DNA of 64,000 nt from Chrysomallon squamiferum (GCA_012295275.1 CM022671.1:33604001-33668000); one strand, 5' to 3'. Shown: positions 4,822 to 56,621, counted from the first letter of the stretch. Made by a program: numbers and translations. Notes: generated by a model not told the origin, from the sequence alone.

Positions 4822-5468
4822 TATGAATATGAACATAAATATAAAACAAAATCAATAAAACTAAAAAAAAAAAAAAAAAAAAAAAAAAACCCACTGCAAT
4901 TAATAAACAAGTAGTAGTAATAGTAGGGTAGAAGCAGTAGTAGTTTCAGTAACAATAGCAGTAGTTTAGGCATTAGTAGTAGTTCTAGTGTAAGCAGCAG
5001 TAGGTGCTGTAGTAGTAGTTGTAACAACTGTTGTAGTGATAATAAACTTAAATATGTAATTCAGTATATTTACTTTTCAATAGTCCATCACCATTCGGCA
5101 GTAAACGTCCACACAGAGGCTTTGACAGTGCACTGATCTTGAGACCATCACAAGTACAGTCTGTTCCACCACATTCCTCTATATCAAATAAAGAGAATCG
5201 CACTTCTACGTACTGAACATCGTTAGGAACTCGGATCGATCCTGCGGTCACGTTGGAATTAAATGGATAACTGGATGGATAATTCGGTGATGCAATTGAT
5301 CCTGTATTTTGACTGGCTGGAGTGTAGGCTAGATGTAATACAATTATTAATCGCAAGACCATTCATTATGCCAATTAAAGTTTTTTTTTTACTTTCTAGT
5401 TTTCTTTTCTTTTTTATTTTTGCATATCCTGAAACATATCAACATTTGCATAAAAATGTCATACACAC

Positions 5469-5594: not shown

Positions 5595-6171
5595 ATTCCC
5601 ACTTTCACAAAAGAAAAAAACTAATACTCTTTATATATTAAGAAAAACAAAGAAAAAATTAAAAATATATCGTTTCTTACAAGCAGACATTCCAACAGAG
5701 ACAAAGGAAACATTAGCCTGAAATAAAAAACAAATTAAAATTAAAAAAAATGTCTCATTTTTCCTTTAATAAAAATTATATTAATTCTCTTTTTTATTTC
5801 AACACCTAGACTATTATAGGTAAAAACAGAACAAATCAGATTAAATTAAACAATATAAAATTCATTAATTCTCATTATTTTTTTCGCTCAGTATATATGC
5901 TGTCGATCAATATTCTGATACATCCGTCCACTTATCCATCCGTTTTTCCTTTTTTCATTTAACTGTCTGATTATTCATCCGAATTTACATGCATATACCC
6001 ATACAAATACATACAACCTTACATCCTGAAAACCCCCACTCTAAACTTGTTATAGTGATTTAATTTGTATAATAATTTCTTATTTTATGAATTTAAGTAC
6101 ATTTAAGTAATTACCTGTGTCTGTTTGGTTATTATGGTCAGAAAAACTACACAAACGATGAGTCGGTTCAT
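4254..6171 (-). CDS. Small secreted CUB-domain-containing protein (C-terminal exon uncertain)
   Basis: Exons 6171-6115 (MNRLIVCVVFLTIITKQTQ, signal-peptide-like), 5717-5681 and 5328-5074 (GSIASPNYPSSYP..VRFSLFDIE..CTCDGLKI..LCG, CUB hallmarks) join in phase via GT-AG. A phase-compatible candidate last exon 4348-4254 (IEQLAHCVPNNTWG...DC*) gives 147 aa but is not CUB-like. Confidence 0.7.
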
Positions 6172-6416
6172 CCTGAAAAGAAACGACTTTGTATGTTGTC
6201 TTGTGTGTTGCCATATATATATACAAAACAGGAGCAAAGAATGTTACCGGAATTATCGTGTTACTAGGCTGTAACTATTCTGAAGTTCTTTACTCTCTAT
6301 ATCACTAAGAATATAACGCTTATCTAAAAGAAAGTTTTCATATTTACATTTGATGCCACAAAAAGAACTTTTGTCTCACGGTTTGTTGTACGTGTATGTA
6401 GGTGTGTGTATGTGTG

Positions 6417-6470
<54 letters not shown>

Positions 6471-6933
6471 AACATAACATTAAAATCAACTACTGTTATA
6501 CGTTGTACCAAATTTCAAAACTAAAATTTCTATTTTCGGGCGGGGGAGAGGGTTATTGTCACTGGGTGTTTTTTTTCCCTCTTTTTTGGTGGTTCTTCTT
6601 CTTTTATTATTATTATTTTTTTTTTTTTTTTTAAGGAGATTGCACTTAATTTCTTCTTTTATTTGTTTTTTTTTTTACTAATTAACTTATAATCCACTTA
6701 TAAAATATTAGGGAATACAATTTTATACAATCTGATGCATCTGATTAATCATCTGTTTAGTAAGACACCTAATCAATATTGTTATTTAAAGCATCTTAAT
6801 CGTTTTCACCTTTCTACATAATATATTTTTAGTCAAAAGAACGCAAATGATAGTGCGCTTTACAAGAATTTAGTAAATAAAAACGGTTCGCTGTTATTTC
6901 CTGTAGAAATGTAACAAAGAATAAAAGCAATGG

Positions 6934-9900
6934 ATGAAGATGGCTGATCCGCTGCGTCGTCCTGAACAAATATCGCCAAAGTCGAGTCCCAGAGACCGAG
7001 GCTCGCGTTCACCGGCGTATGTTCCGCGACAAGACTCAACAGGAACCCTGAAGACTACAATTAGCCTGGGGAAAGTGCCCTCCGTAATCCATACGGGTCC
7101 ATTTTATCTCCTAAAAGATGTCCCCGGTAGGTTACTAGTATTACTATTAGTAATTTAGTACTAGTAGTAGTACAGTAATAATACAACTAACTATTAATAT
7201 AGTAATACTAGTCACTGAATAACTCAGACTACTGTCCTCTACTACAACTATACATAAATGATGATAGCATTTACTGTTTTAATTATTGTCATTTGTCACA
7301 TTTTGATTTATTAATTGCTTTTTATTACATTTTATGTACATGATGATGATGATGCACATTTAACATTAATAATAAAATGTAATTAGGAAATGTTTATGGT
7401 AATTGTTAAACATACTGTTACTTGTGTTAGTATTACGTTATTTCCCTAGATAAAACCTAAATAAAAAATAAAATTATGTTTTCTAATGTTTTATTTCAGA
7501 AAAGTCGGAAATCACAGGAAGTACAAACTTATTTCGGAGTCACGGACTGGAACATTCATACAGCAAGTTCTGTGGAAAAAAGGTTAAAGATGAACTTAGC
7601 TCATTCCTGCCTCACCTTCCAGGGAACATTGACGCCCCAGGAATTTCTGACAATAGGCAAGTTTATAATTTACTATTAAAATATTGATATAATATGTATA
7701 TATATTTATTAACAAATCGAGGCAAACATTTTCTTTTTCTGGGGTCGTTTTAATACTAGATTTACTACAGACCATTTTTAATAAACTGTTTGAAATTACA
7801 CAGTGGAATATAAATTATTTTGTATTCTTTTATTAAGTAGATCTCATAATTAAAACATAGTTGTTCTAACACCCAGTAACAGGTCATGATAAAAGAAAGA
7901 TATAATTAACAGCTTTAAAATGAAATTAACATGATTGGAATAACATAACCTGGATTTTCAATAAATATTATGTGTTAAAAAAAACATTTGTTGTAAATTT
8001 TATCATAATTAAGGTTGACAATATATTATCATAGATATTACAAATTTGTCACTTGTCTTTTTAACTTTTCAGTTTATTGCTTGCAATCTCTCATTGCAGC
8101 TCCTTGCGGTCACTCATTGAGAAGCCTCCCATCACCGGTAAAGAGCTGACGCCTCTCTCTGGCTCAGGACTCGCGGGCTTTCGACTTCACCCTGGCCCTG
8201 TAAGTCAGCTTTCCTAATTCACACACAATACTTCACCCTGTTAGTCAGCTTTCCTAATTCACACACAATACTTCACCCTGTTAGTCAGCTTTCCTAATTC
8301 ACACACAATACTTCACCCTGTTAGTCAGCTTTCCCCTGTTCACCCTGTTAGTCAGCTTTCCTAATTCATACACAGTACTTCATCCTGGCCCTGTAAGTCA
8401 GCTTTCCTAATTCTCACACAATACTTCACCCTGTAAGTCAGCTTTCCTAATTCTCACACAATACTTCATCCTGTAAGTCAGCTTTCCTAATTCACACACA
8501 ATACTTCACCCTGTAAGTCAGCTTTCCTAATTCACACACAGTACTTCACCCTGTAAGTCAGCTTTCCTAATTCACACACAATACTTCACCCTGTTAGTCA
8601 GCTTTCCTAATTCACACACAATACTTCACCCTGTTAGTCAGCTTTCCTAATTCACACACAATACTTCACCCTGTTAGTCAGCTTTCCTAATTCACACACA
8701 ATACTTCACCCTGTTAGTCAGCTTTCCTAATTCACACACAATACTTCACCCTGTTAGTCAGCTTTCCTAATTCATACACAGTACTTCATCCTGGCCCTGT
8801 AAGTCAGCTTTCCTAATTCACACACAATACTTCACCCTGTAAGTCAGCTTTCCTAATTCTCACACAATACTTCATCCTGTAAGTCAGCTTTCCTAATTCT
8901 CACACAATACTTCATCCTGTAAGTCACCTTTCCTAATTCATACACAGTACTTCATCCTGGCCCTGTAAGTCAGCTTTCCTAATTCACACACAATACTTCA
9001 CCCTGTAAGTCAGCTTTCCTAATTTACACACAATACTTCACCCTGTTAGTCAGCTTTCCTAATTCACACACCATACTTCACCCTGTTAGTCAGCTTTCCT
9101 AATTCACACACAATACTTCATCCTGTTAGTCAGCTTTCCTAATTCATACACAGTACTTCATCCTGGCCCTGTAAGTCAGCTTTCCTAATTCAAACACTTT
9201 CACCCTGTCAATTCCTAATTCACACACAATACTTCATCCTGTTAGTCAGCTTTCCTAATTCATACACAGTACTTCATCCTGGCCCTGTAAGTCAGCTTTC
9301 CTAATTCACACACAATACTTCACCCTGTAAGTCAGATTTCCTAATTCACACACAATACTTCATCCTGTAAGTCAGCTTTTTCACCCTGTAATTCAGCTTT
9401 TTCCTAATTTATACACAATACTTCACCCTGGTCCTGTAAGTCAGATTTCCTAATTCTCACACACTACTTCACCCTGTAAGTCAGCTTTCCTAATTCACAC
9501 ACAATACTTCATCCTGTAAGTCAGCTTTCCTAATTCACACACAATACTTCACCCTGTAAGTCAGCTTTCCTAATTTATACACAATACTTCACCCTGGTCC
9601 TGTAAGTCAGCTTTCCTAATTCTCACACACTACTTCACCCTGTAAGTCAGCTTTCCTAATTCACACACAATACTTCACCCTGGCCCTGTAAGTCAGCTTT
9701 CCTAATTCTCACACAATACTTCACCCTGGCCCTGTATGTCAGCTTTCCTAATTCACACACAATACTTCACCCTGTAAGTCAGCTTTCCTAATTCACACAC
9801 AATACTTCACCCTGGCCCTGTAAGTCAGCTTTCCTAATTCACACACAATACTTCATCCTGTAAGTCAGCTTTCCTAATTCACACACAATACTTCATCCTG

Positions 9901-11704
9901 GCCCTGTAAGTCAGCTTTCCTAATCCACACACAATACTTCATCCTGTAAGTCAGCTTTCCTAATTCACACACAATACTTCATCCTGTAAGTCAGCTTTCC
10001 TAATTCACACACACTACTTCACCCTGTAAGTCAGCTTTCCTAATTCACACACAATAAATTTTATAATTAACCTCAGAATATTTTTTTAATAGTTCAGTCA
10101 TTTTTATCATTTTAGTTTGTTTCTTATTTTTAAAATACTGTCTTTTTTTAAAGAAATATTTATGACTTGTATATTTTTATATTTATCAGTTCCTGACATT
10201 TAGAAGGTGGGAATGCTTTTCATAAATTGCTAAAAACTTTTTTGAATGACAGAAGTACAGCATAATGTTCAGTGCTCGTGTACATTTAGATGTAAATATT
10301 ATGGGTCCTTGCATATTATGATATTGAAACCTATCTCTATTAAAAGTAAACTAATATTATTGTTATCAAAGTTCTCTTGGGTAGTAATAATAGTTAAATG
10401 TTAATAACTGAGGATAACCACTAAACAAATATTTGTCCTGAGGTTGTTTTATTTATTTACTTTTCAGTTACCAGAGCAGTATCAAATGATGAATCAAATG
10501 ACACAGAAGAAGAAACACAAACACAAAAAGAAACACAAAGAAGGTGACAAAGGAAATACTCTTCAGGAAACACAAAGTGAGTATTCTCATGTTTTTTTAA
10601 TTATTCAGTAAAGTTTAATATATTGATACAATTCCCAATACAAATCGTTTTACGTTTGAATTGTTTCATAATGTGGTTCAGTCAATAAGTTTACCCCTTA
10701 CTGAAACAGATGTATAAACTTATATAATTAGAATTATTCTTTTTTTTTAATTAAGAAACTATACATTCACAAAACAATTTACAGGAATAACATTCATTAA
10801 TATAATTTTGTTCTAGTTTCTAAAATGGCATATATATCCACTTGACATGTTTTTAAATATGATATTCCCTAAGACTGTGATGGGTTCTTGCTTAGAGGTT
10901 AATAGTCCACCTCAGGAAACAGCAGTTGAGTGCATCTGTCCTTCTTTCTTCCTGCTTAGACACCATGGCTGGGGTATCAAATTTATGACTGTACTCTCAT
11001 TTCAATGGGAAGATTTCTTACATCAAAATAACTTCCTGCACCACTGATCAATAAGCAAACATTTATATATATGCATTGGTAATTTATTTTAAATTAGTAA
11101 AATACTCCTTGTGTTCATTAATAAATAATAATCTTCTTTTTTATTTTTTTTTGTGAAATGAATATTAAATAACTTGGACCTATTTTAATATTTTATCTAG
11201 CTGACAACACAGCAGATGCAGAAGCAAAGAAACACAAAAAGCCAAAGAAAGACGAAGAACAAAAAGATGCAAACAGTCGAAGGAAAAAGAGAAAGGATAA
11301 AAAAAAGAAAAAGGTTTGTACAGTATGGTTTCAGTTTTTATGGTCGAGTGGGCAAGAGGTTGCCACTATGATTTTTTGTAGCAGTTATCTATAACCAAAA
11401 CACATTTGATCTACATCTGGATAAGCGTTTTATTTGTTTTTGTGCAGTGTTTTTAATAAAAACAAATATTTTCAATGCTACAATACTTAAAATCATAAAT
11501 CTGGAATGAAAATTAGATAACATTTATCAACTTATTGTAATGCTATGTAAAAATAGTTGTACGTTGTAACCATTGAAAATTTATATATTTTATAAAGATA
11601 TTTCTACCTCTGTGAATGTTTATGAAGAATGTCTAATTGTATTTTGATTTGTTTTGCAGAAACACAGTCCAGAACACACATCCACTCATGGCGATACTGT
11701 ATGA
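6934..11704 (+). CDS. MED19: Mediator of RNA polymerase II transcription subunit 19
   Basis: Exons 6934-7126, 7500-7656, 8100-8199, 10468-10576, 11201-11313, 11660-11704 sum to 717 nt, 238 aa, open. Motifs GPFYLL, TGSTNL..HGLEHSYSKFCGKKVKDELSSFLPHLPG, DNSSLRSLIEKPP, LAGFRLHPGPLPEQY and a Lys-rich tail ending KHSPEH. Intron 2 is GC-AG. The start may be the ATG at 6940. Confidence 0.96.
8184..10055 (+). repeat. 40/46-bp minisatellite (~45 copies) starting inside MED19 exon 3 and filling most of intron 3
   Basis: Unit CTTCACCCT(GGCCCT)GTAAGTCAGCTTTCCTAATTCACACACAATA repeated in tandem with few variants (GTTAGT, CATCCT, CATACACAGT). Copy number estimated from length. Confidence 0.97.
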
Positions 11705-13498
11705 CAAATGTTAACACTATCTTGCCTCACCACATCTGATATGTGATATCAGCACAGACATCTATCATATCATGACCTTCAACATCTACATCTCTTACTG
11801 AACATCCACTGATGAAGGCTTTTATGTTGACCTTCAATATTTGTGACCTCGTCATCTCATTTTTTTTTTTTTTTTTTTTTGATCCCACTGTTGAGCATAT
11901 GGAGAGACTCTTGATGTTATCTGTGTATTTTATTGTCTTCTTACCATTAGTGCGTAAATGGTCTATTTATACTGTACTGTAGGCTACCTGGTTGTTTTTA
12001 GAGAATTTTTGTTTTTGTTTTTACATTTATTTTGAAACATGACAGATATTTATGAATTAAATATATGCGTACAGATTACTTATGATATCAAGAAAAGAGA
12101 AGAAATGAATTTTATTAAAAGTAATTATGACAGATATTAGTGGATTCTGTCATTTGTTTACAATATAATTTTTTATAATGCCAGTGGTGATAGATTCACT
12201 GATAACACAAGTAATAAAATTGATAATGTTCTAGCAATCATTTGTTTTATTTAACTGTACAAACATTAGTTGAAAACCAACTCTAATGTTAGTGATTACA
12301 AAACAAATGATGAATGAATATTTATAATAAAAAAACTTAAACATCAACACACATGTATGAAAAAAGATCTATTCATTATCGTCAATACAAATTGTAACTG
12401 ACTACTCGGATTTCATACAAAAGGTATACATTATACATATATAAAATAATTGTTTTGTCAGTGTAAATTGTGCGTATTTGTCTGTGCTCCATGTACAAAA
12501 TATTAGTGTTTTAATTCTGCACATCCAGAATGTGTGTACACCAAAAATCCCTGCATACAAAAATATCTGCATATATTTTATAATCCAGCATTTATAAACC
12601 ATTTGCATATTAATTGAAAAAACATACATTTTATAACTGATGGCACTGAATTACACATATTAAAGATATTTATTAGATTATATATAATTAACTCTGCAAT
12701 CTTCAAGCAGTACATCAAAAGATTATACAGTATTTCATGCAACACATATTAATCATATCAAATATATGTGACCAAAGTCATGAAACAAAGACCGGTTTCT
12801 AATGATTAACTTCCAAAGCATTTTGTGCCAAGTTCAATGATTTTCTTTCTGAAAATGTCAAGTAAAATGAATTTAGTTACCAGACTTTATATCTGACTCA
12901 TATATAACAGATTGGTGTGTTCTTTCTGACAAATTTATTTACATTAAATTTGTTGTAATTATAACAACAGTTAATGCAATTAGTTATTCAAGTGTTCAAC
13001 ATTATTATTAATCTTTGACTGCTGTCTAGAGAGAAGCTCAATAAAGTTAATTACAATTCAAAAGATTTAGATATTTTGAATTTGTATGTCTGTAAATATA
13101 TTCTGTAAAGTATTTCTGTTTTCATGTCTCGCAAAACAAACTGCATTGACCACAGAATTCAGACATGTCACCAATATCAGCAAGCTGATGGTTAAAATCT
13201 TTTATTTTTCAACACATTTTGTAGGATGCTAAAGTTCAGAATCAGGTTTTTGTATGACAAGGATAAAAACTAATATTTTACCATTTGATGTACATGTAAA
13301 CACACTCAATGTTTATTACAAACAAGTAATTAAAAGTCAGATATGTTGTTACCAAAGAACAGAAAACTTCACAATCTCAACTGCATTTATATTTCAGTTT
13401 TAAAACACTAAAGGTTTCTGTTCATGATCAGTGTACTATTGCTGAAATACACAAGACCAAAGAATATATGTTTTGGTGTGTACAATATCCAGCAATAC

Positions 13499-16400
13499 TT
13501 AGCTAATACTATCAAGGAATTTTAACAATATCCTTAAAAATTCTCCTGGATTTTCTGTGTGCACCCAGTGTCCAGCTGATAATACATGTTCTATCTGTGC
13601 CCTTGGAAATAATTTCTTTATTGCAGGAATGGTCTGTTCACTGTACAGAGAAAAAAATGTGAAAATAGAAAGAAAAAAAAATAATAAAGTAAAGTAAAAA
13701 AGTAAAGTAAAGTAAAGTATGTAAAATAAAGTAAAGTAAAGTAAAGTAAAGTAAGTAAAATAAAGTAAAGTAAAGTAAAGTAAAGTAAAGTAAAGTAAAG
13801 TAAAGTAAAGTAAAGAAATGAAATGAAAAAAAATAATAAAATAAAATAAAAACTAAAAAATTATATGTAAACAGGATAATTATTAACTGAATATTTTAAC
13901 TGCATGATTAGAGAGTAATTTTATTAATATTCAGTGCTGGGCACAGTCTATTTTTGGAAATAATAAAAATTGTAATTAATAAAAAATAAAGCTAATTTGA
14001 ACAAATTATGGAATAAAATAATTTAATGTGGGGTTCATTTAAAATAAATAAAACTGTCTTACTCTTAAAATATGTGTCATTTTTATGACAAAAAGTTTTA
14101 AAAATAAATATCTTCTTACCTTATGTGATGGGAAAGACTACCTCCAATAAATAATGCATCTTTTTCATATGTAGTATTAAACTGTGGAAACTCTAATATG
14201 TGGTTGAAGTTATCAATAATTGCATCCAGATTCAGCTTCCATTTAACTTTTCCCTCTTGCTCCACTAAATTTGTTATAAGAAATTTCCTTACCATCTCAG
14301 ACTGCAAATAAGCAATCATTTTTCAAAAATAAATATAATTTTAATCATTTAATCAGTCCTGCATTTAATTTAAAAAAAAAAAAAAACATTATTATTGATA
14401 AAAAATTGTAAAAAATCAATGTGTTATTGCTATATATGGATATAAAATATTTTTATCCCTGCTATCAAACTTTACATACAATATTATAATAACAAAGATT
14501 AATTAGAAACCAAGCATAAAATAAGTCAGTTGGCAGAGAGAAACATTTGTAATTCAGGAAAAAAGAGATAATTCTACCTGAACTATAGCACTAAGATCTT
14601 CTTCAACCTGTCTACGAACAGTGGAGAGAGGTTTCCCCTCCTCTGGCACATTCTGCTTCATACGCTTGGCAAACTCAAGCAGATCTGTTCCCACTGGACT
14701 CATAGAGGGAGAAACATCAACCACAACTAGAGCATCCACACGTTCAGGCTTAAATATAGAAAAATGATATTACACTGCATTGACACACACACGGACAAAC
14801 TGACTAAACTCTTTTTTATTTTCTACTGTACTTCCAAATAATTGTTCTTTTTTGTGTCTATTATTAAACTGTTTTTATGTGCTTTTTTTTAGGATGCCCA
14901 AACTGTTATTTGATTTTGTCACTGGAAATAATTCTTTGCTAATAATAAATATGAAAGTAATAAAATTACTCCAATAAAAAGTATCTGTAACATTGTGTCA
15001 GAAAATAAATTTAAAAAAATAAATATCCACAGTAAACAAGCAAAAATTAAATAAATAAAAAAAATTGTAATACAAAATTTAAAAAATTTAAAAACAATGA
15101 AGGCATATTTTTAAAAGAATACCCCAAACAAATTACCTTATATCTAAGCAATTAGAATCATTAATCGTTTTCCTTATTTTGATTGATGTTAAAGAACCAG
15201 TGTTAATAATATTCTGTCACTACATCTGGATATTCAGTTAAACATTTTAAGTAACATCTTCAAACTGTCCACATATAAATAGAAGGTATATTTTCATTTT
15301 AAGTTCAAATTTTTTAAAATTCTATTTTGAATGTAGTGTTCACAAAATCAGATAAAACAGCAGTGAAAATATAAAATAACTGCAACAAAGACAAACAACT
15401 AGTTTGCATACCACATTAAGGGCTGTTGTCATGGCAATTTTGCCTCCCAAACTGTGTCCAACAAGAATAGCACTATCCAGCCAAAGTTCATCCATTAATT
15501 TCAGGATATCCTCACTCATTACCTCATAGTTCATGACCGGATTATGCTCACTGTTGCCATGGTTTCTCACATCTACTGTTATTACCTAACAAATGGAGAC
15601 ATCATAGAAAATTAGTGGAAGTACCATAAGGATTAGCTTATTGTGAACTATGCTGTGGATTTTATGACATATAAATTAACTGATTTAATTGCATTTAAAA
15701 AAACATTTCATTATAATATATTTTATATATATATATATATATATTTTTTTTTTAATTATCAGTGTGTTAAAATTCTAACTTAAAATGACAAGAAGACTGA
15801 TGATTGATAACTCTTCATAATTATACAAACAACTAAACCTTGTGAAAAGCACAAGCATACTTCTTATGCATGGCTTGACTGGTACCTGTAGATTAAGTGA
15901 TGCATGCTGACACCTGGTAAAATTAATAGATATCATTCATCAAAAAATTATAATTTCTACTGCTATTATTTCGATATTCTATGGACATGTATCTTTTTAT
16001 AATAGCTAATTTACAAATTAGGTAAATTATATTAGATTTGAATTATATTATTATTAAAATAAATAAACAACAGCAACAATAAAATAATAATAAAAATAAA
16101 TAATAAAATCAAATAAAAATCAAACTGACGTACCTTCCTGCCAGTTTTTTTAACCAGATTCTTAGACAATGTGTGCCAGTTGAGTTTTGATCCAAATAAT
16201 CCATGCAGGACGAGTAAAGGTGGACTTGCAGAAAATTCTGAAGTACCATTTTCGTTTTGTTCATCAATGTGATATGCCAGTTTTACAGCATTTCTGAAAC
16301 ATAATTAACACCATAAAGTGATAAACGATATAAATTATATCCTATTTTAACACTTTTTTAACAGTGTTCGTCAACAGAGTGAAACAAAATACTTTTTAGC

Positions 16401-17148: not shown

Positions 17149-17640
17149 TCAGAGTTTTTTGTTAATGTTCTTTGATTTTAATGTTGGTGGTTTAGGCCGT
17201 TGGTTGTGAAGGTACTGCAGAAGGTAGAAGTGCAGTATGTCATCGTCACATTGACTCACAGCATGGGCAAAGATCTGGCCTGGCTTGTCATGGGTCCTGG
17301 CAGCCTGATCTTTCATCAACTTGCATATTGTGGCAAGACAGACATGTGTCTGATCTGCAGCATGGCTGTGGGGTTGAACTGCTTCTGAGTGCTCTCTCTG
17401 TAAGTCTGTTATCACAGAACCTCGACAATTACCAATAGATCTTTTGATGCATTTCCACCACACCTTTGTCTTGTGAGTTGCATGTTTGGTATACAAAAAC
17501 CGCTCATAACAGATTTTGTTACCACCCTTATTGCTGTGAAAAACTTCCATATTAAACATACTTCTGATACTAGAGCAAGCTGGAGAATATATAGTGAAAC
17601 ACATTTTACCCTGGGACATTTTATAAAGCATTTACAATAG
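17149..17640 (-). mobile_element. FLYWCH zinc-finger fragment of a Mutator-like (MULE) transposase, truncated
   Basis: ORF 17149-17631 contains SNKGGNKICYERFLYTK..WWKCIKR..CRGSVIT..HSH followed by a helical MK..A...KP.QIF segment typical of FLYWCH-MULE N-termini. No DDE domain follows. Confidence 0.7.

Positions 17641-23965: not shown

Positions 23966-27030
<3,065 letters not shown>

Positions 27031-28921: not shown

Positions 28922-56621
<27,700 letters not shown>

What the first reader, a model, noticed from the sequence alone, without database searches (positions are those of the whole stretch)
8184..10055. Minisatellite born from the MED19 exon 3 splice donor: ~45 tandem copies of the exon end + GTAAGT
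Seen: the repeat unit is the last 9-15 nt of exon 3 (CTTCACCCTGGCCCT) plus the first ~31 nt of the intron. The true donor at 8200 is therefore followed by dozens of near-identical CCT|GTAAGT sites. Each unit also has a branch-point-like CTAAT and a CAG. Reading past the true donor hits TAA at 8215-8217, so use of any downstream copy creates a premature stop. Established: such transcripts are NMD targets, and exon definition usually favours the donor nearest the upstream acceptor. Inference: the array may be a copy-number-variable U1 decoy or poison-splicing dial on an essential Mediator subunit, or a tolerated neutral expansion.
Basis: partly seen in the sequence, partly recalled or inferred. 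Interest (0 to 1): 0.8.

Follow-up and report, generated by a model that had tools for sequence, protein, structure and literature searches.

The report
Repeated splice donor in MED19 intron
In an animal's MED19 gene, the end of exon 3 and its splice signal are repeated 45 more times at the start of the next intron, but the assembled RNA joins at the first copy, so this is likely a harmless repeat expansion of a kind already known from several human and amphioxus genes.

Summary
The array is real: 46 head-to-tail units (8184-10056, mostly 40 or 46 bp) start at the MED19 exon 3 donor. 30 read GTAAGT (the true donor plus 29 copies), 13 GTTAGT and 3 other. Both public genomic runs laid (two studies) hold the tandem joint and the 3' exit, so it is not an assembly artefact. 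Extending exon 3 to any of the 45 later copies passes the in-frame TAA at 8215. However, 3 of 4 runs laid carry spliced contigs joining exon 3's true end to acceptor 10468; no repeat-derived join is listed. Contigs drop rare and NMD-degraded forms, so low-level use is not excluded. The layout matches human F7, 6-16/IFI6, CBS, LMNB2 and PDGF donor-spanning minisatellites, amphioxus 'mirages' and chicken exon stuttering; in F7 only the first donor is used. No sign of selection to keep the extra donors: donor position +3 is among the most variable. A decoy or poison 'dial' has no support. The scan has noted the same arrangement on other DNA (134 notes in at least 41 genomes hold the search words; a related array lies in this genome). 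Verdict: ordinary, a new member of a known kind.

The parts
6934..7126 (+). MED19 coding exon 1 (ATG at 6934, or 6940)
   Evidence: Continuous 239-aa frame over six exons. No Pfam hit of its own. Spliced contigs have 450-484 nt upstream of exon 4, matching exons 1-3 = 450 nt plus a short leader.
7500..7656 (+). MED19 exon 2; ends at a GC donor (AG|GCAAGT), so intron 2 is predicted GC-AG
   Evidence: PF10278 E 2.9e-18; solved MED19 chains E 2e-16; frame.
8100..8199 (+). MED19 exon 3 (100 nt); its last 16 nt seed the repeat
   Evidence: PF10278 E 2.6e-13, profile 64-96; 8170-8199 seen joined to 10468 in contigs of three runs.
8200..8205 (+). Authentic 5' splice site CCT|GTAAGT (first copy; the one used)
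   Evidence: Loose ends before 10468 in X6, X7 and X8 equal 8170-8199.
8184..10056 (+). Minisatellite of 46 units spanning the exon 3/intron 3 boundary. Inferred founder unit 46 bp (8184-8229); derived 40-bp unit lacks 6 nt of the exon part. Fills 82% of intron 3.
   Evidence: head-to-tail joint 8229>8184 and 3' exit in genomic runs X2 and X5.
8215..8217 (+). In-frame TAA met by any extension of exon 3 past the true donor (stop after 155 residues, upstream of three further junctions)
8240..8352 (+). Copies 2-5, all with the weakened donor GTTAGT (+3 A>T)
   Evidence: clustering test (permutation P 0.005, run-aware P about 0.10).
8285..8392 (+). Hypothetical in-frame, stop-free 108-nt cassette between a GTTAG-derived TAG and the first intact downstream donor; not seen in RNA
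   Evidence: Enumeration; weak acceptor context; absent from contigs listed.
10057..10467 (+). Unique remainder of intron 3 with the T-rich acceptor. Without the extra copies the intron would be 442 nt; the gene's other introns are 346-624 nt.
10468..10576 (+). MED19 exon 4
   Evidence: Spliced contigs, GT..AG joint 10576>11201; Pfam profile 97-126, weak.
11201..11313 (+). MED19 exon 5
   Evidence: Joints 10576>11201 and 11311>11658 (cut +2) in X6, X7, X8.
11660..11704 (+). MED19 exon 6, coding part to the stop; 3' UTR follows

Best explanation
The array is a tandem amplification of the 46 bases spanning the MED19 exon 3 donor, the assembled RNA is spliced at the first copy, and the other 45 copies are likely silent passengers removed with the intron. 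Inferred history: one 46-bp duplication across the junction, then a 6-bp slip between two CCCTG words giving the 40-bp unit, then growth by unequal exchange or slippage. Inferred reason for silence: the first donor is the one that defines the 100-nt exon with the acceptor at 8099, and position outranks sequence among equal donors, as shown for human F7. The next four copies are also weakened (GTTAGT), and any rare extension hits TAA at 8215 and would be removed by NMD. The cost is small, so the array likely drifts.
For: Shown: unit structure and variants; longest exact internal repeats of 139 bp at lags of 80 and 353 bp, i.e. block duplication; array present in 2 of 2 genomic runs laid, from two studies; exon 3 joined directly to exon 4 in spliced contigs of 3 of 4 runs laid, from two studies, with upstream lengths that leave no room for an insert; donor position +3 varies in 12 of 40 regular units, second only to position 37 (15), so the donor motif is not specially kept; no RNA family hit in the array; no unusual folding of exon 3 plus the first units, z = 0.33. 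From papers: F7 minigenes use only the most upstream functional donor (PMC1557585, sections read); amphioxus mirages do not disturb splicing (PMC3087553, passages).
Against: All RNA evidence is assembled contigs, which drop rare forms, and NMD would hide extension products. The filter demonstrably loses contigs: X8 and X9 laid nothing on the exon 1-3 stretch, though X8 holds the exon 3 end. 3 loose ends and 3 pieces were not shown. The scanning rule was shown in mammalian cells, not in this animal. Neutrality itself was not measured.
Confidence: 0.82

Rival explanations
1. Leaky but unselected: downstream copies (first candidates 8240 and 8393) are used at a low rate, more under stress, giving stop-bearing transcripts that NMD would remove. 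The GTTAGT change in copies 2-5 may have been favoured because it shields the true donor, as reported for the second CBS repeat.
For: Copies 2-5 are all GTTAGT; P = 0.005 if variants were placed at random. The title of Yang et al. 2000 states this mechanism for CBS (seen only in the reference list of PMC1557585). Latent donors behind stop codons are activated by heat shock in human cells (PMC3510495, abstract).
Against: Variants spread in runs: a second run of five GTTAGT copies lies at copies 11-15, and a run-aware estimate gives P about 0.10. No such junction was listed.
Confidence: 0.11
2. Functional dial: copy number tunes MED19 output through U1 binding, poison splicing, or inclusion of an in-frame cassette such as 8285-8392.
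For: 29 extra donors have the same -3..+8 sequence as the true one. 45 of 45 extensions give a premature stop; 13 of 567 internal AG-GT pairs are in frame and open. Word depth hints that array size or make-up differs between samples: 7.7x flank in X5 against 17.6 assembly copies; 11.9-20.3x in X2 against 13.8-18.0. The tool warns that depth is not copy number.
Against: Only the canonical junction was seen. The donor core is not conserved among copies and the array's acceptors are weak. The arrangement recurs in unrelated genes and taxa with no common function (PMC1557585, PMC3087553, PMC12954441).
Confidence: 0.05
3. Assembly artefact: the array is absent or much shorter in the real genome.
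For: The exact copy number could not be read from contigs; X5 depth suggests fewer copies than the assembly.
Against: 26 distinct unit types among 45. The head-to-tail joint, high repeat depth and 3' exit are in genomic runs of two studies, and repeat contigs are in X6 and X7.
Confidence: 0.02

Closest known systems
Human F7 intron 7 37-bp VNTR (Borensztajn et al. 2006, PMC1557585; abstract, introduction, first results section and discussion read)
   Same: The first monomer spans the exon-intron boundary; the authentic donor is followed by sequence-identical copies; only the first is seen used.
   Different: 5-9 copies against 46 here; two unit lengths (40/46) and 16 altered donors here; invertebrate gene; polymorphism and the ability of the copies to be activated are shown for F7, not here.
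Human CBS intron 13 VNTR and 6-16 (IFI6) intron 2 minisatellite; LMNB2 and PDGF intron minisatellites (as described in the introduction and reference list of PMC1557585; originals not read)
   Same: Donor reiterated 10-25 times. For CBS a substitution in the second repeat is said to prevent multiple alternate splicing, echoing GTTAGT in copies 2-5 here.
   Different: 6-16 and CBS use the nearest pseudo-sites as well; no such use was seen here, on insensitive data.
Amphioxus 'mirage' minisatellites (Adh3, globins BflGb6/BflGb9; PMC3087553, passages)
   Same: [quoted passage not shown]
   Different: Different lineage and gene; length instability shown there, only hinted here.
Chicken exon stuttering (PMC12954441, passages)
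   Same: Edge fragments of an exon multiplied into the neighbouring intron.
   Different: Concentrated on chicken dot chromosomes, with a link to high GC or DNA structure proposed there; this locus is AT-rich (about 30% GC flanks) and only one intron of the gene is affected.

Membership tests
Donor-spanning minisatellite (F7/CBS/6-16 type; 'mirage') | Head-to-tail array of 10-160 bp units | tested here: met
   46 units, mostly 40 or 46 bp.
Donor-spanning minisatellite (F7/CBS/6-16 type; 'mirage') | First monomer spans a real exon-intron boundary | tested here: met
   Unit 8184-8229 crosses 8199/8200; junction confirmed by Pfam continuity and spliced contigs.
Donor-spanning minisatellite (F7/CBS/6-16 type; 'mirage') | Donor sequence reiterated in the intron | tested here: met
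   29 further CCT|GTAAGT and 13 CCT|GTTAGT.
Donor-spanning minisatellite (F7/CBS/6-16 type; 'mirage') | Most upstream donor dominates in mRNA | tested here: met
   Canonical join in 3 of 4 runs laid; the fourth showed no MED19 mRNA contig. Minor forms are not measurable from contigs.
VNTR | Copy number differs between alleles or individuals | tested here: inconclusive
   Depth ratios differ between X2 and X5, but contig depth is not copy number and no read spans the array.
Poison-exon / regulated unproductive splicing | Alternative site use introduces a premature stop upstream of later junctions | tested here: met
   45 of 45 extensions; a property of the sequence only.
Poison-exon / regulated unproductive splicing | The stop-bearing isoform is made and rises under NMD block | tested here: inconclusive
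   Not seen in contigs; no raw-read or NMD-inhibited runs were offered.
Poison-exon / regulated unproductive splicing | The element is conserved or under selection | tested here: inconclusive
   Within the array the donor core is not preferentially kept. No related animal genome could be searched, so conservation across species is open.

The most novel reading that the evidence does not exclude
The array is an active, length-variable splicing rheostat on MED19. Selection has weakened the four copies next to the true donor (GTAAGT>GTTAGT), and the same change creates new TAG acceptors 27 nt behind a branch-like CTAAT. The array would then yield NMD-bound extensions and an in-frame 36-residue cassette (8285-8392) at rates set by allele length or stress: an exon or intron being born inside a Mediator gene.
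Probability: 0.06. Interest if true: 0.55.

Novelty: new member of a known kind. Interest (0 to 1): 0.13.

Why it matters
As it stands, little: one more donor-spanning minisatellite, with more copies than the human textbook cases. It adds an invertebrate data point that the first of many equal donors wins. No paper in the library holds both 'MED19' and 'minisatellite' or 'MED19' and 'poison exon', so this locus seems undescribed, but the class is not. If inner copies were used in proportion to array length, it would be a natural titration of donor competition and of mirage-type exon or intron gain in a core transcription gene.

Tried and rejected
Whole-genome search: no genome is held for this window, so other copies of the unit elsewhere in the genome were not checked; inside the window the unit occurs only in the array. 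Rfam over 6000-13000: one chance-level hit on a GT microsatellite (21.9 bits against a gathering score of 58), none in the array. RNA folding of 8100-8440: no better than shuffles, so masking of the copies by structure is not supported. RNA runs X8 and X9 laid no contig on 6880-8239; for X8 this is a filter loss, since it carries the exon 3 end. X9 showed only short off-target pieces on 9986-12400; no conclusion is drawn from it. The joint 10470>11636 in X8/X9 (side 21 nt, CC..TA ends, other letters between) was rejected as an unrelated sequence. The 45-nt stretch 8200-8244 looks like a miniature intron (GTAAGT...CTAAT...TAG) but was set aside: its donor-to-branch distance of 18 nt is too short by general knowledge (recalled), and RNA shows no such product. 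The run of GTTAGT next to the true donor was not accepted as evidence of selection (P about 0.10 once runs are allowed for). First trial exon boundaries were off by 1-2 nt and were corrected. Paper searches without a useful result: 0 papers each; listing only, not used; PMC10078293 passages concern human splicing-associated repeats and gave no donor-spanning case. Look-up of earlier findings by MED19 exon 2 sequence found nothing.

Full report
Observation. Tandem Repeats Finder reports a period-40 array at 8196-10056. Parsing it gives 46 donor-like sites from 8200 to 10026, all preceded by CCT: 30 GTAAGT (including the true donor), 13 GTTAGT, and one each of GTCAAT, GTAATT and GTATGT. Of the 45 donor-to-donor units, 30 are 40 bp, 10 are 46 bp and 5 are irregular. 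A 16-nt core occurs 42 times in the window, all in the array, against 0.09 by chance. GTAAGT occurs 30 times in the 1,873-bp array and 10 times in the other 62,127 bases of the + strand.

The gene. Six exons (6934-7126, 7500-7656, 8100-8199, 10468-10576, 11201-11313, 11660-11704) give a continuous 239-residue frame (the first trial had boundaries 1-2 nt off). Of 5 exon pieces scanned, exons 2 and 3 match Pfam Med19 above the cut-off, exon 4 matches below it, and 2 gave no hit; the profile continues from position 96 to 97 across 8199/10468. Exon 2 also matches solved MED19 chains (E 2e-16). Earlier unreviewed notes on the same genome call the animal a snail; I did not test this.

Anatomy and history. 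The founder unit is 8184-8229: 16 exon bases plus 30 intron bases. The last unit ends at 10056 and runs into unique intron. Removing the extra copies leaves a 442-nt intron, in line with the gene's other introns of 346-624 nt. The common 40-bp unit lacks 6 nt of the exon part, which a slip between two CCCTG words would explain (inferred). As a result, 36 of the 45 downstream copies match the exon end for only 3-4 nt, 6 for 9 nt and 3 for 16 nt. There are 26 unit types, regular units differ by 2.2 bases per 40 on average, and exact blocks of up to 139 bp recur at several lags. This is ordinary minisatellite turnover. Among 40 regular units the donor's +3 base differs in 12, second only to position 37 (15), so the donor motif is not selectively kept (copies are not independent events).

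The in-frame TAA at 8215-8217 is confirmed, and extension of exon 3 to any of the 45 later copies includes it. It lies upstream of three junctions, so NMD is expected from general knowledge. CTAAT and CAG are each in 44 of 46 units, but they do not make good acceptors. The CAG follows another AG by 4 nt, and all 93 AGs in the array have 2-4 T in the tract against 5-8 for the five real acceptors. A stop is not unavoidable for cassette-type use: 13 of 567 AG-to-donor pairs of 20-300 nt are in frame and open, the first being 8285-8392.

Is it real DNA? The run search listed 11 runs, 9 holding the stretch, from 3 studies, all as contigs. I laid 6 of the 11. Genomic runs X2 and X5, from different studies, both cover exon 1 to the first unit, show the head-to-tail joint 8229>8184, show far higher depth on the repeat than on the flank, and show the 3' exit into 10057 onward. 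An assembly artefact is therefore unlikely. Depth of single repeat contigs over flank was 11.9-20.3 in X2 (assembly 13.8-18.0 copies of those words) and 7.7 in X5 (assembly 17.6). This hints at a different length or make-up in X5, but the tool warns that depth is not copy number.

Which donor is used? On 9986-12400, which includes the last whole unit so that a repeat-to-exon-4 join could show, X6, X7 and X8 each carry one spliced contig through exons 4-5-6 with GT..AG joints. In each, the loose end before 10468 is exactly 8170-8199, the true end of exon 3. X6 and X7 are labelled 'DNA?' but behave as RNA; X8 is on record as RNA; together they come from two studies. The lengths upstream of exon 4 (476, 484 and 450 nt) fit exons 1-3 (450 nt) plus 26, 34 and 0 nt. 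No joint from the repeat to 10468 is listed. X9 showed no MED19 mRNA contig. Limits: contigs drop rare variants, NMD would deplete extension products, 3 loose ends and 3 pieces were not shown, and the filter loses contigs (X8 laid nothing although it holds exon 3). X6 and X7 each hold one 70-nt repeat contig (depth 4.2 and 13.2) beside intron contigs at 2.4-4.1, which is compatible with pre-mRNA.

Other tests. No Rfam family lies in the array. Exon 3 plus the first units fold no better than shuffles (z 0.33). Copies 2-5 are all GTTAGT, which pushes the first intact rival donor to 8393 (a 293-nt exon). Random placement gives P 0.005, but variants come in runs (9 of 13 GTTAGT copies are followed by another) and a run-aware estimate gives about 0.10, so this is a lead, not evidence of selection.

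Comparison with what is known. PMC1557585 (abstract, introduction, first results section and discussion read) describes minisatellites whose first monomer spans an exon-intron boundary in human F7, 6-16, CBS, LMNB2 and PDGF. In F7, LMNB2 and PDGF only the authentic donor is used; in 6-16 and CBS nearby pseudo-sites are used too. [quoted passage not shown] The title of Yang et al. 2000 (reference list only) reports that a substitution in the second CBS repeat prevents multiple alternate splicing. Amphioxus 'mirages' (PMC3087553, passages) are the invertebrate equivalent, do not disturb splicing and are proposed as a route to intron gain. Chicken exon stuttering (PMC12954441, passages) was found in 236 introns. 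Latent donors behind in-frame stops are common, normally silent and activated by stress in human cells (PMC3510495, abstract). Library searches for MED19 with 'minisatellite' or 'poison exon' found no paper; subscription journals and supplements were not searched. The scan's own notes hold 134 findings in at least 41 genomes with the search words, 8 shown, and a related splice-junction array in this genome; these are unchecked notes and not support.

Verdict. A real, donor-spanning minisatellite in MED19 intron 3, spliced at the first copy in the RNA available. It works like, and meets the tested defining features of, the F7/mirage class; length polymorphism is unproven. Silent passenger 0.82, low-level leak with possible shielding by copies 2-5 0.11, functional dial 0.05, artefact 0.02. 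New member of a known kind; interest 0.13.

Noticed in passing
window 7654-7662: MED19 intron 2 is predicted to be a GC-AG intron (AG|GCAAGT); only this boundary keeps the frame into exon 3. No RNA contig was laid across it.
   Followed up: partly
window 8200-8244: The +3 A>T change turns a donor copy into a TAG 27 nt behind CTAAT, so the first unit plus GTTAG resembles a 45-nt miniature intron; not seen used.
   Followed up: partly
window 7185-7188, 7017, 7350, 8043: X2 and X5 both lack 4 nt at 7185 relative to the window; single-base differences at 7017 (X5, exon 1), 7350 and 8043 (X2): ordinary polymorphism or an assembly difference.
   Followed up: no
window 11314-11675: X7 has a contig (depth 4.1 against 43 for the spliced form) running from intron 5 into exon 6, and X6 has intron 4 contigs at depth 2.4-3: pre-mRNA or retention.
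   Followed up: no
window 11660-12400: MED19 3' UTR extends at least to 12400 in X6 and X7 contigs.
   Followed up: no
window 5051-5362 (-): Exon with a CUB domain (PF00431), transcribed away from MED19.
   Followed up: partly
window 14557-14769 (-): Exon that resembles an alpha/beta hydrolase of the ABHD11 type (recalled; no Pfam hit), converging on the MED19 3' end.
   Followed up: partly
window 17152-17631 (-): FLYWCH zinc-finger ORF (PF04500), possibly a Mutator-like transposon remnant (recalled link).
   Followed up: partly
window 24630-25677 (-): Two exons of a Ras-family small GTPase (PF00071), Rab35-like by recall.
   Followed up: partly
window 33306-33389 (+): tRNA-Ser(GCT) gene, followed by a 126-bp two-copy repeat at 33401-33659.
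   Followed up: no
window 40265-56618 (+): LIM-domain exons at 55032-55300 and 56367-56618 (PF00412) and an upstream exon at 40265 without a Pfam hit (Prickle/Testin-like by recall). A 24-bp, 5-copy repeat at 55307-55434 begins about 30 bases behind the first LIM exon's apparent donor.
   Followed up: partly
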